NCBI GenBank assembly: GCA_036263495.1
Contig: DATAGU010000185.1
Coordinates: 1 to 40,742, forward strand
Source: Polyangia bacterium
GTDB taxonomy: Bacteria; Myxococcota_A; Polyangia; Palsa-1104; SHYY01
Reading direction: 5' to 3'
Length of the DNA: 40,742 nt
Part shown: piece by piece, positions 16,367-19,267 of the stretch
How the letters are laid out: every line of letters starts with the position of its first letter
How positions within the stretch are numbered: the first letter of the stretch is position 1
The notes under the pieces: model-generated
Databases searched by the model: none
Seen by the model: the letters and a program-made list of their open reading frames with translations, nothing else
What the model was told of the DNA's origin: nothing
Program-made: the position numbers and the translations under genes

Positions 16367-19267
16367 TCAGCCGTCGATCTTGTGGGTCTCTCCGCCCGCC
16401 GCCTGGGCCATCCCTTGTGACGACGCATCGCCGTAGCGTTCGAGCAGCGAACGCACGGTCGGCATCACCGGGGTGCCGCGCAACACCTCGGCGAGGATGG
16501 TGCCGACGTCCTTGCCCTTGAACAGCGACACCAGGTTCATGTTCTCGGCCACCCCGGCGAGCATGATCTTGTCGCCGAGCGCGGTCATGGCCTCGATGAG
16601 GCCGCGCTGCACCGCGTTGCGCTCGGCCACGGTGGCCGCCGACTGCGCCTCGATGAGCTTGACCTCGAGGTTGCGCAGCGCGGTCTGCAGCTCGACCTGC
16701 GTTGTGTTCAAGGTGCGCTGGGCCGCGGCGCGTGCGTCGGATCCCTTGAGGAGGGTCTCGCGCTCGGCGGCGTGAGCCGCCTGCTCGCGTGCCAGCCGCG
16801 CCTCGAGCGCCGCCTGTTCGCGGGTATCGGTGAGCGTCTGTCGCTCGCGGGCGCGCTGCTCCTCCTCACGGACCCCGGCGAGCGCCGCCTCGTGCGCGAG
16901 GCGCCGCTCGAGCTCTCGCAGCCGCGCCTCCTGCTCGCGAATGGCGGTGGCCAGCTCGAGCTTGTGACGCTCCACCTCGGCGCGCAGGCGGGCCGAGGCG
17001 AGCGACTCCTGCGCCTGGCGGTCCCCGATCTGGAGCGTCACCGACTCGGTCTGCACGCGGCGCATGAGCTCGCCGATCTCGCGGTCCTCGATGGTCGAGG
17101 ATAGGACCTCGACCTCGGTGACGAGGAGGCCGTTCTCGGGGAACTGCCGCCCCTTGCGCCCCGAACCATCGGCCGGCCGCTCACCGAGGATGATGTCGCG
17201 CACGAGCGGCGAGAGCGACGGCCACAGCTCGCGCAGCGGCTGCACGCGGCAGCGCCCACGCACGAGGCTCCGCAGGTGGTCGCACAACATCTGGATGTAG
17301 TTCTCATGCACGAACCACTTGTCGCGACCCTCGCGCAGGAAGGCGACCGAGTAGGACACGCGCAGGGACACCTTGACGAAGTCCGCGGTCTCGATGGTGA
17401 TGACGTCGGAGACCCGGTTGCCCTGGGTGCGCAGGAAGCATGTGCGCAGCGGGCCGTCGTCGCTCTTCGGCGTCCCGGTGGAGAGGAGGAGCGGCGTCAG
17501 GCGCTCTTCGTAGCCGAGCAGCGTGACGCAGGGACCCTCGACCACGCGCTGGCTGTCGGCCGAGGTCACGAGCACCGCCGTGTTGTGCGGCACCGTGATC
17601 GAGATGGCCCACGGGGTGGTGACCGTCAGATCGGTGTACTTGTGCGGCTCGCCCTGGGCGATCCACAGGTTCCAGTCGTCGGCCGGCACGGTGCGCGTGA
17701 TCTGCACCTCCTTGCGCGGGTCGACGAGGTAGGACTGCTTGCCGCGCACGAGCCGCACCTCGCCCGTGGCCAGATCGCGCACGTAGATGCCGCTCTTCTG
17801 ATCGATGCCGATGGCCTCGATGAACACGCGCGAGTGGTCGTTGCCCACCACCGCCTCGCCGGTCTCCGGCGACAGCACCTCGATCTCGTTGAAGGGGAAG
17901 AAGAAGGTCGAGACGCCGGTGAGGAGGAGCTCGTCGCCGGGGTAGTATTGTTCCTTCTCGAGCGCCACGCCGCGCGGCAGCTTGGCCGCGAGGTCGGCGC
18001 GCGTGATGGGCGAGATGATGCGCAGCCACAGCGCGCGCTGCGGCAGGAGCTCGTAGGCGTCATAGATGCGCTGGCGCGAGCCCGGGACCATGAACTGGTC
18101 GTAGGGGCCGGGGAAGACGCGCGCCGGGCCGACCTTGATCTCGCGCTTGCCGTCGGCGTCGATGATGACGCAGTACTCCTTCTCGCCGAGCACCACGGCG
18201 CGCCGCACGAGGCGCGCAGCGCGGGCCTGCTTCTCGAGGGCCTTGCGAACCGCGGGGGTGGCGAGGACCTCGGCGAGCTGCTGCGATGGCAGTGCCGGAG
18301 GTGGCGCCGCGGGGGCGACCGGCGAGATCTGCTTTGCGGACGCCCCGCCGGTGGCCGGGCTCGGCTTGCGGTGGCGCGTCCGACCCGATTGATCGATCAC
18401 CGCGTCGGCCGTCTGGTGACGCCGCGGCGCCTGCCTCGAGATCTGCGGCTCGTCGTCGAAGGCCCGCTCCTCTTCGGCCTCGAACCGCGCGAACCCCTCG
18501 GGCTCGGGGGCCGCGGCCGGGGCCTGCTGCGCCGGGACCTCCGCGGGCGCGGCGTCGCGCGGCAGCTGCGCCAGGATCTGACGCGCCATCATCGCCGAGA
18601 TGCCCGCGCCCGAGTCGTCCACCGAGGTGTCGGGCACGATGTCCACGCCGCTCGGCGGGACGTAGAGCTGCGTATCGAGGCCGCGGATGACGATGAGCTG
18701 GCCGCGCTTGAGCTCGACCGGCGGCATCTCGGCCGGGAGCGTCGTCGAGGGCTGATCGTCGCCCACGTTCTCGGCCGTGGCGCGGGTGATGGCCGCCGAC
18801 TTGGCGGTCACCTCGTAGAACGGCGCGGTCTTGTCGACCTCGCCATACACCTTGACCACGAGGTACTGGTCCGAGGCGAGCTCGTGCGCGTCGCGCACCT
18901 CGACGCGCTGCCCGGGCCGCAGCCAGAAGCTGCACGGGCCGGGGATCATCGAGCGGGTGCCGTTTCGCAGCGGGCGCGACTCGTTGCGCCCCTGCTTGAA
19001 CCGACCGTTGACGCCCCCATCGTTCTCGACCAGCGGGTTGAAGAGCACGGCGTACTGGTTGTCGCCGACCTCGATCATCATCTGGGGCCGGCCGGTGGGG
19101 TCTTCACGGAACCCCCCCTGGCCGTCATCCACCACCACGCGGTCGGCCGCGGTGGGCGAGACCATCGTGGGACCGACGTGCAGGGTGACCTCCCCCTTGT
19201 CGTCGTCCTGGACCCACAGGAACTGGCGCTCGGTGACCGGGATCTTGCGACTGGTACGTTCGTTCAT
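16367..19267 (-). CDS. Major Vault Protein (MVP) homologue: N-terminal MVP repeats, SPFH-like shoulder domain, long cap-helix coiled coil and C-terminal cap region
   Basis: I prefer the start [22 protein letters not shown], whose GGAGG sits 5 nt upstream; the track ORF extends 42 codons further to 19393. Segment-level similarity to eukaryotic MVP as I recall it: [17 protein letters not shown] vs human [38 protein letters not shown] vs [46 protein letters not shown] vs [60 protein letters not shown] vs [36 protein letters not shown]. A ~130-residue coiled coil follows. Confidence 0.85.
   Translation of the reverse strand: [966 protein letters not shown]

What the first reader, a model, noticed from the sequence alone, without database searches (positions are those of the whole stretch)
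18205..18625. About 140-residue intrinsically disordered Pro/Ala/Gln/Arg-rich insertion inside the MVP repeat array
Between repeat-like modules the bacterial MVP carries [90 protein letters not shown]..., which has no counterpart in eukaryotic MVP. In vault geometry a loop emerging from the repeat barrel would project into the lumen or onto the surface. A basic disordered loop could act as a built-in cargo/RNA tether, replacing the separate TEP1/vPARP/vRNA partners that are absent here.
Basis: inference. Interest (0 to 1): 0.6.

Follow-up and report, generated by a model that had tools for sequence, protein, structure and literature searches.

The report
Disordered loop in bacterial vault protein
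A myxobacterial relative of the major vault protein carries a real, family-wide floppy loop between two wall domains, with one short arginine-rich stretch conserved as tightly as the folded parts, inserted where human vaults dock their internal enzyme; its job is untested.

Summary
Window 18205-18625 (- strand) encodes residues 215-354 of a 966-aa major vault protein (MVP) homologue from a Polyangia genome. There is no frameshift: third-codon-position GC stays at 0.83-0.97.

It needs correcting in three ways.
- About 93 residues (235-327) are predicted disordered. They are flanked by two conserved helices.
- The loop is not basic overall (K+R 11, D+E 13). Its order is Pro/Ala-rich stretch, acidic block (about -7), basic motif (about +5), Pro/Ala-rich stretch.
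- The protein has 7 repeats, not 9. The loop sits where eukaryotic MVP has repeats R4-R5.

All roughly 180 close homologues have a loop at this junction. The core motif [VI]-D-Q-S-A-R-x-R-x-R-K occurs in 154 of 163 unique inserts. Its dN/dS is 0.07, against 0.06 for the folded repeats and 0.41 for the variable linker.

More distant MVPs have a 9-14 residue turn here, an ordered-looking insert of about 100 residues, extra repeats, or longer charged disordered regions.

The insertion point aligns with human I163/Q164. Q164, R169 and D214 contact the PARP4 MINT domain from the lumen, so a lumen-facing tether is plausible but inferred.

RNA or cargo binding is untested, and no conserved neighbouring gene was found. 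I rate this a new variant of a known kind, of moderate interest.

The parts
16367..19267 (-). Gene for the bacterial major vault protein homologue. It is 966 aa from MNERT at 19267, with the stop codon at 16367-16369. The mechanical ORF extends upstream to 19393.
   Evidence: ORF list. Pfam MVP_shoulder, Vault_3 and Vault_4. PDB MVP hits at about 1e-26. Identical 966-aa NCBI product P0001. Third-position GC rises only after about codon 40 of the long ORF.
18626..18697 (-). Last strands of the third repeat (residues 191-214, [24 protein letters not shown]). This is the N-terminal anchor of the insert.
   Evidence: pLDDT above 90 with strands at 191-195 and 208-210. Conservation 0.83-0.93. hhalign places residues 1-214 on human MVP 1-163.
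18566..18595 (-). Conserved helix A (residues 225-234), preceded by the conserved stretch [10 protein letters not shown].
   Evidence: Helix at 225-234 with pLDDT 65-71. The consensus SGAxxSAAAARQLLAQL is conserved across the family. dN/dS 0.12.
18287..18565 (-). Intrinsically disordered linker (residues 235-327), variable in length and sequence.
   Evidence: pLDDT 39-53 and no secondary structure. Composition and charge-hydropathy. Column identity 0.21-0.37 with many gaps; linker length 48-133 aa, median 87. dN/dS 0.41 in its variable parts.
18443..18487 (-). Acidic block (residues 261-275, [15 protein letters not shown]).
   Evidence: The segment before the motif has median net charge -7 across 154 unique inserts.
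18365..18433 (-). Conserved arginine-rich short linear motif (residues 279-301, [23 protein letters not shown]). The core is [11 protein letters not shown] at 18365-18397.
   Evidence: Q293, R296 and R298 are invariant, and R282, A295 and R300 are at least 90% conserved, in 64 aligned homologues. The core is found in 154 of 163 unique inserts. dN/dS is 0.069 against 0.059 for the folded repeats. The motif occurs nowhere else in six-frame translations of the window and 74 loci.
18287..18364 (-). Neutral Pro/Ala-rich spacer (residues 302-327).
   Evidence: Median net charge 0; Pro+Ala fraction mostly 0.5-0.7 in the sampled homologues (range 0.27-0.77). pLDDT below 50.
18215..18286 (-). Conserved helix B (residues 328-351), leading into the next repeat.
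   Evidence: Helices at 328-336 and 338-351 with pLDDT 73-81. The consensus RRALExEARQARLIR is conserved. dN/dS 0.087.
18152..18205 (-). First strand of the next repeat (residues 355-372, [18 protein letters not shown]). This is the C-terminal anchor of the insert.
   Evidence: Residue 358 aligns to rat and human MVP residue 274, the start of the run of four repeats that aligns to human 274-519 (R6-R9). pLDDT above 90.

Best explanation
Shown:
- The segment is a genuine insertion conserved across its family, sitting in the turn between the third and fourth repeat domains of a 7-repeat bacterial MVP.
- Its layout is helix A, a disordered loop of about 90 residues, and helix B.
- Within the loop the order is fixed: a Pro/Ala-rich stretch, an acidic block, the motif [VI]-D-Q-S-A-R-x-R-x-R-K preceded by a P-R-R cluster, and a Pro/Ala-rich spacer.
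- The spacers evolve freely. The motif is under purifying selection as strong as in the folded domains.

Inferred:
- The exit point is homologous to the human R3|R4 junction, whose residues Q164 and R169 (and D214 at the next junction) bind the luminal PARP4 MINT domain. The loop therefore most likely projects from the inner wall of a vault-like cage.
- That would form a belt of flexible tethers a few nanometres above the waist.
- The constrained motif is the functional element: a short docking peptide held on a flexible leash. It would capture a specific partner inside the cage, either a polyanion such as RNA or an acidic protein surface. The acidic block would act as an intramolecular counter-charge or competitor.
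- In effect the wall itself would carry the tether that eukaryotic vaults obtain from separate proteins docking at the same site.
For: - Reality and disorder.
- Family-wide presence and ordered charge blocks.
- Motif invariants.
- dN/dS: motif 0.069, repeats 0.059, variable linker 0.41.
- Insertion point: residues 1-214 align with human 1-163, and residue 358 aligns with human 274.
- Human Q164, R169 and D214 contact MINT, which is anchored between repeat domains and extends into the lumen. That interface is electrostatic (PMC12280208).
- PARP4 forms belts above the waist.
- Divergent relatives carry longer disordered inserts at the same site with denser K/R and D/E blocks, including an RGG-like stretch in P0124.
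- No conserved neighbouring gene could supply a partner in cis.
Against: - Orientation is inferred from positional homology only. I had no coordinates to superpose.
- It is not known whether this protein forms a closed cage.
- The loop is net neutral. Its peak K/R density, 5 per 12 residues, barely exceeds that of the folded regions, 4 per 12. That is weak for a generic RNA binder.
- AF2 gives the motif no structure and no docking site.
- No RNA family was detected in the window, and no partner was identified.
- The resemblance to viral arginine-rich RNA-binding peptides is from memory, not a test.
- The only database similarity of the motif peptide is non-significant (C11orf98, E 0.14).
Confidence: 0.4

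Rival explanations
1. Assembly or gating latch. The acidic block and the basic motif of neighbouring chains, or the motif and a surface of MVP itself, pair electrostatically around the ring. This would stabilise the cage or regulate its opening, rather than bind cargo.
For: The acidic-then-basic order and the near-zero net charge are conserved. The motif is highly specific and no partner gene is conserved nearby. Eukaryotic vault opening and half-vault dynamics are known from the literature listed.
Against: MVPs with only a 9-14 residue turn at this junction are the majority among distant homologues, so the fold does not need a latch here. AF2 shows no docking of the motif in cis.
Confidence: 0.22
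2. The loop faces outwards. It would act as an entropic bristle, or as a docking site for an external partner or anionic membrane, in line with the membrane association of SPFH-family cages.
For: The MVP shoulder belongs to the SPFH clan, and eukaryotic vaults were recently seen on membranes (PMC13100048). The wall is one domain thick, so a junction turn could be reachable from either side (own knowledge).
Against: Side chains at the homologous human junction residues contact a luminal ligand. The protein has no predicted membrane-binding segment or amphipathic lipid-binding helix in the loop.
Confidence: 0.15
3. Tolerated spacer at a permissive site. The junction accepts insertions, and the loop is largely neutral low-complexity filler, possibly the decayed middle of an older ordered insert domain or of lost repeats.
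For: In different lineages the same junction carries nothing, an ordered-looking insert of about 100 residues, extra tandem repeats, or disordered regions of 130-430 residues. The variable parts have dN/dS 0.41 and many indels. Helix A is shared with relatives of about 35-40% identity whose inserts look ordered.
Against: The motif has dN/dS 0.069 and is present in 154 of 163 unique inserts. The order of the charge blocks is conserved. Helices A and B are conserved. Together these rule out a wholly neutral filler.
Confidence: 0.13
4. Artefact: a frameshift, a mis-assembly or a wrongly joined ORF creates an apparent insert.
For: None was found. The region is GC-rich and low in complexity, which is the sort of place where such errors can occur.
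Against: Third-position GC stays high in frame. The same architecture recurs in about 180 independent assemblies, including cultured Polyangium species and the complete Minicystis rosea genome. Purifying selection acts on the motif in this frame.
Confidence: 0.01

Closest known systems
Eukaryotic major vault protein (rat or human MVP; PDB 4V60, 9BW5, 9BW6)
   Same: Same fold and domain order: N-terminal beta repeats, an SPFH-like shoulder, a long cap helix and a C-terminal tail. Only MVP chains match the model (Foldseek E down to 7e-21). HMMER E is 1e-26 to 1e-65.
   Different: This protein has seven repeats instead of nine; human residues 164-273 (R4-R5) have no counterpart. In their place is a helix-loop-helix insert of 140 residues with a disordered core. 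No TEP1, PARP4 or vault RNA is evident locally.
Previously noted bacterial MVP homologues (Myxococcales, Cytophagales, cyanobacteria; Daly 2013, PMC3762200; Sokolskyi 2019, bioRxiv 10.1101/872010) and Asgard MVPs (PMC12962969)
   Same: This protein belongs to the myxobacterial group of MVP homologues. Variation in repeat number among prokaryotic MVPs has already been reported; Asgard homologues have five repeats.
   Different: In the term searches and sections I read, none of these papers mentions an insert at this junction, its disorder or the conserved motif.
PARP4 MINT domain docking on vault repeats R3-R5 (PMC12280208)
   Same: Same place on the wall. The insertion point aligns with the R3|R4 junction residues that contact MINT. 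The human interface is driven by electrostatics, and a flexible chain extends from it into the lumen.
   Different: In humans the tethered element is a separate protein binding non-covalently to an acidic MVP stretch. Here a covalent loop of the wall protein carries its own acidic and basic blocks. No homology to MINT was detected.
Arginine-rich RNA-binding arms of viral capsid and antiterminator proteins (own knowledge, not tested)
   Same: A short Arg-rich peptide with a conserved Gln/Ser/Ala context, sitting on a disordered segment of a shell-forming protein.
   Different: The motif has far fewer basic residues (4-6 in 24), sits next to an acidic block, and is internal rather than terminal. 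No RNA partner is known and no sequence relationship was shown.

Membership tests
Major vault protein family | MVP beta-repeat domains | tested here: met
   Pfam Vault_3 at 2.5e-09 (above its cut-off), Vault_4 at 1.2e-4 (just below its cut-off) and Vault_2 weak. The AF2 model has repeats at pLDDT above 90, and only MVP structures are hit.
Major vault protein family | SPFH-like shoulder domain followed by a long cap helix | tested here: met
   MVP_shoulder 2e-19 at ORF residues 659-768. The first AF2 model has a continuous helix at 729-896 with pLDDT 75-94. The region aligns to rat residues 520-793.
Major vault protein family | Nine repeats (R1-R9), as in vertebrate MVP | tested here: not met
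   Three repeats (residues 1-214, aligned with human 1-163) plus four repeats (residues 355-616, aligned with human 274-519) give seven. Repeat number is already known to vary in prokaryotic homologues, so this does not exclude family membership.
Major vault protein family | Assembly into a closed two-halved cage | not testable with these tools
   No multimer modelling or experiment was available.
Vault ribonucleoprotein (MVP with TEP1, PARP4 and vault RNA) | Presence of minor vault proteins and vault RNA | tested here: inconclusive
   There are no Rfam hits in the 40.7-kb window. No TROVE, PARP or vWA domains occur in 16 neighbouring ORFs. No conserved neighbours were found in 74 loci. The rest of the genome was not searched.
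Intrinsically disordered linker carrying a short linear motif | Low predicted order, biased composition, and fast indel-rich evolution | tested here: met
   pLDDT 39-53 and no secondary structure. 77% disorder-promoting residues. Length 48-133 aa and column identity 0.2-0.4. dN/dS 0.41. A dedicated predictor such as IUPred was not available.
Intrinsically disordered linker carrying a short linear motif | A short island of strong conservation inside the disordered region | tested here: met
   Q293, R296 and R298 are invariant. The motif has dN/dS 0.069. It is present in 154 of 163 unique inserts.
Arginine-rich RNA-binding motif | High arginine density and demonstrated RNA binding | not testable with these tools
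   There are 4-6 basic residues in a 24-26 residue window. Peak K/R density is little above the folded controls. Binding cannot be assessed computationally here.

The most novel reading that the evidence does not exclude
Polyangia cages built from this 7-repeat MVP load their contents through a tether built into the shell. A ring of luminal disordered loops would each present the DQSARxRxRK peptide, which would specifically capture an RNA or another polyanionic or protein cargo. That would be a self-contained bacterial analogue of the separate PARP4/TEP1/vault RNA docking system. It would give the first experimentally tractable clue to what vault-like particles enclose.
Probability: 0.2. Interest if true: 0.75.

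Novelty: new variant of a known kind. Interest (0 to 1): 0.5.

Why it matters
The function of vaults has been open for decades, and nothing experimental is known about bacterial MVPs. This work identifies a strongly constrained peptide on a flexible loop, placed where human vaults dock their internal enzyme. That gives a concrete, mutable handle. Pull-downs with the peptide, and comparison of particle contents with and without the loop, could reveal what a bacterial vault-like cage holds. Several organisms that carry it are cultivable (Polyangium species, Minicystis rosea). The work also shows that the R3|R4 junction is the evolutionarily plastic site of the MVP wall, accepting repeat gain, domain insertion and disordered loops. 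That is useful for engineering vault nanoparticles with internal payload tethers.

Tried and rejected
- The first full-length AF2 run used 64 close homologues and gave pLDDT below 50 across the repeats, so it could not separate linker from domains. I used it only for the shoulder and cap helix. A second run on residues 1-620 with a diverse alignment succeeded.
- A 150-sequence alignment was too large to submit.
- An exact look-up of P0001 found no encoding contig on record.
- The genome scan with the diverse alignment had no conserved stretch to search with, so I used the close-family alignment instead.
- I looked for conserved partners in three ways. All were negative beyond genus-level synteny in Polyangium and generic Ser/Thr-kinase domain hits:
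  - tblastn of nine window neighbours against 74 loci;
  - clustering of all neighbouring ORFs;
  - comparison of the downstream genes.
- The Rfam scan of the window gave nothing.
- NCBIfam gave no hit for the protein.
- Cluster look-up of distant representatives returned no organism names, so the taxonomy of the other insert types is unknown.
- A PDB sequence search with the motif peptide gave only a non-significant hit to C11orf98.
- I considered and dropped an AGC-kinase site (RxRxxS/T), because the Ser/Thr is not conserved.
- I considered the insert as decayed R4-R5 repeats. There is no support: the flanks are helices, and insert-free 7-repeat MVPs are common.
- Model coordinates are not exposed, so I could not superpose the model on the human vault-PARP4 structure.
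Full report
**What is at the coordinates**

It lies in ORF 16367-19393(-). The public record is a Polyangia metagenome-assembled genome (MAG) whose contig is the same length as this window. It annotates a 966-aa product starting at MNERT (19267), which is identical to P0001. I use that numbering, in which the finding covers residues 215-354.

The protein matches Pfam MVP_shoulder (2e-19), Vault_3 and, just below its cut-off, Vault_4. It matches solved rat, human and rabbit MVP chains at E about 1e-26 as a single sequence and 1e-65 as a profile. Foldseek of the model finds only MVP structures. It is therefore a bacterial MVP homologue, a kind already reported in myxobacteria.

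**Is the segment real?**

Third-codon-position GC stays at 0.83-0.97 in this frame right through the segment. All 120 database homologues (59-100% identity) have a segment between the same two conserved anchors, '...[14 protein letters not shown]' and '[13 protein letters not shown]...'. So do about 65 loci from species-representative genomes. These include cultured Polyangium fumosum, P. jinanense and P. spumosum, and the complete Minicystis rosea chromosome. A frameshift or mis-join is excluded.

**Anatomy**

A first full-length AF2 run was uninformative for the repeats. A second run on residues 1-620 with a diverse 86-sequence alignment gave mean pLDDT 86.4 and pTM 0.75, with all repeat domains above 90. 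In that model:
- Residues 225-234 form a helix (pLDDT 65-71).
- Residues 328-351 form a helix (pLDDT 73-81).
- Residues 236-327 have no secondary structure and pLDDT 39-53.

Residues 235-327 are 77% disorder-promoting and 12% order-promoting, and fall on the disordered side of the charge-hydropathy boundary. The flanking repeats fall on the ordered side. So about 93 of the 140 residues are disordered, bracketed by two conserved helices.

**Conserved order inside the loop**

Across the family the linker varies from 48 to 133 residues (median 87) and is rich in Ala, Pro and Gln. Its layout, however, is fixed:
- a Pro/Ala-rich stretch;
- an acidic block (median net charge -7);
- a basic window (median +5);
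- a neutral Pro/Ala-rich spacer.

The basic window contains a P-R-R cluster and then the core [VI]-[D/N/E]-Q-[S/A/T]-A-R-x-R-x-R-[K/V]. Q293, R296 and R298 are invariant in a 64-sequence alignment made without reference to the motif. R282, A295 and R300 are at least 90% conserved in that alignment. A regular expression for the core finds it in 154 of 163 unique inserts. Variants persist in the most divergent family members.

I computed codon-level rates over 72 sequence pairs of 80-97% identity:

| Region | dN/dS |
|---|---|
| Folded repeats | 0.059 |
| Motif window | 0.069 |
| Helix B | 0.087 |
| Helix A | 0.117 |
| Variable linker | 0.41 |

The loop is thus a fast-evolving leash carrying one island that is as constrained as the fold.

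The whole insert is about neutral. The family median net charge is 0, and in this protein K+R is 11 against D+E 13.

**Where the loop sits in the MVP wall**

HMMER and hhalign place residue 358 on rat and human residue 274. They run collinearly from there through four repeats into the shoulder. A profile of residues 1-214 aligns collinearly with human MVP 1-163, that is R1-R3 (probability 90.8%, E 1.2e-6).

A caveat applies to that last alignment. Segments 13-72, 118-165 and 274 onwards agree with the PDB alignments printed.

The bacterial protein therefore has 3 + 4 = 7 repeats. The third repeat carries its own internal loop of about 40 residues. Human residues 164-273 (R4-R5) have no counterpart. 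The insert leaves the wall at the residue homologous to human I163/Q164, which is the R3|R4 junction. Variation in repeat number among prokaryotic MVPs is already documented; Asgard homologues have five.

**Lineage distribution**

A search of 1.84 billion cluster representatives found 992 homologues. At the same junction they show four states:
- Most distant full-length representatives have only a 9-14 residue turn.
- One clade has an insert of about 100-125 residues with normal hydrophobic content, so probably an ordered helical domain. Second copies in two MAGs that also hold a motif-bearing MVP (L070, L072) carry a similar ordered-looking insert of about 100 residues.
- Two representatives have extra tandem repeats.
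- The nearest outgroups (44-52% identity) have disordered inserts of 136-431 residues. The larger of these have denser K/R and D/E blocks, and one has an RGG-like stretch.

The QSARxRxR motif is confined to the Polyangia-centred family (about 56% identity or more). This junction is therefore the plastic site of the wall. The motif-bearing loop is lineage-specific but conserved within its lineage.

**Context**

The gene stands alone. It diverges from a Ser/Thr-kinase/AAA16/GAF/GGDEF gene and converges on a small biotinyl-domain gene. None of nine window neighbours is conserved beside the MVP gene in 74 related loci, apart from generic kinase-domain hits. Clustering all neighbouring ORFs reveals only genus-level synteny in Polyangium.

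No Rfam family reaches threshold in the window. No TROVE, PARP or vWA domain appears among 16 neighbouring ORFs. The motif occurs nowhere else in 1.79 million residues of six-frame translation of the window and loci. Whether partners exist elsewhere in the genome is unknown.

**Most likely mechanism**

In the human vault, the PARP4 MINT domain is anchored between repeat domains on the inner wall and extends into the lumen. The interface is electrostatic and involves MVP Q164, R169 and D214 (PMC12280208). PARP4 forms belts above the waist. Q164 is positionally homologous to S215, the first residue of the insert.

I therefore infer that the loop emerges on the luminal face. If a cage forms, the copies would make a ring of flexible tethers. 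The one strongly constrained element, the Arg-rich motif, would be the business end, docking a specific partner, either a polyanion or an acidic protein surface. The acidic block could act as an internal competitor. I put this at about 0.4.

What is shown: the insert, its disorder, its architecture, the selection on the motif, and the homologous position. What is inferred: the orientation, cage formation and any binding.

**Rival explanations**
- An inter-subunit electrostatic latch: 0.22.
- An outward-facing bristle or membrane contact: 0.15.
- A largely neutral spacer at a permissive site: 0.13. This is contradicted by the conservation of the motif and the helices.
- An artefact: 0.01, refuted.

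**Comparison with what is known, and novelty**

Bacterial MVP homologues and variable repeat numbers are known. In the term searches and sections I read, none of the retrieved papers mentions this insert, its disorder or the motif. Literature searches for bacterial vault structures found nothing. I rate it a new variant of a known kind.

The resemblance of the motif to viral arginine-rich RNA-binding peptides is from memory and untested. The only database similarity of the motif peptide, to the pre-ribosomal protein C11orf98, is non-significant (E 0.14).

**Verdict**

Interest is moderate (0.5). The main value is a testable handle on what a bacterial vault-like particle does.

Noticed in passing
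window 19268-19393 (- strand): The mechanical ORF starts 42 codons upstream of the annotated MNERT start. That extension has low third-position GC (0.63-0.77, against above 0.9 in the gene) and is absent from homologues. The true start is most likely 19267.
   Followed up: partly
window 18728-18787 (- strand; residues 161-180): A second variable loop lies inside the third repeat ([20 protein letters not shown]). Column identity is 0.47 and pLDDT dips to about 75. It belongs to an internal excursion of about 40 residues, with a short helix, that human R3 lacks.
   Followed up: partly
L070 6001-8697 and L072 4598-7291 (with L063 and L045 from the same MAGs); also L046 and L066: Several Polyangia or Myxococcota MAGs hold two MVP paralogues. 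One has the disordered motif-bearing loop. The second (36-42% identity) has an ordered-looking helical insert of about 100 residues at the same junction. In L066 the insert is instead a 247-residue charged disordered region without the motif.
   Followed up: partly
P0131-P0150 and P0156 (distant representatives): This clade of MVP homologues has an insert of about 100-125 residues at the same junction, with normal hydrophobic content and a recurring 'I.N...F..KAG....Y' pattern. It is probably a small helical domain of unknown function. The taxonomy was not recoverable.
   Followed up: no
window 5300-6577 (- strand): A full-length ERG4/ERG24 sterol reductase homologue (Pfam E 1e-131) lies about 10 kb from the MVP gene. 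That is a second eukaryote-like gene in the same window. Sterol genes are known in some myxobacteria.
   Followed up: no
window 19464-24851 (+ strand): A 1795-aa protein is transcribed divergently from the MVP gene. It combines a Ser/Thr kinase, an AAA_16 (STAND-like) ATPase, two GAF domains and a GGDEF diguanylate cyclase. Kinase-AAA_16 genes also lie near the MVP gene in some other loci (for example L001), but this looks like chance in kinase-rich genomes.
   Followed up: partly
window 18365-18433 (motif peptide): The only PDB sequence similarity of the motif peptide is to human C11orf98 (8inf): [20 protein letters not shown] against [19 protein letters not shown]. The E-value is 0.14, so it is not significant, and I record it only as a lead.
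   Followed up: no
L002, L008, L031, L037, L039, L040, L062: Close homologues carrying the same loop occur in MAGs labelled Thermoanaerobaculia or Planctomycetota. This could be mis-binning or horizontal transfer of the gene.
   Followed up: no
window 17276-19309 (+) and other long ORFs antisense to the MVP gene: Long open frames run opposite the gene (up to 677 aa), and their counterparts recur across loci. They are shadow ORFs typical of DNA with about 70% GC, not genes.
   Followed up: yes
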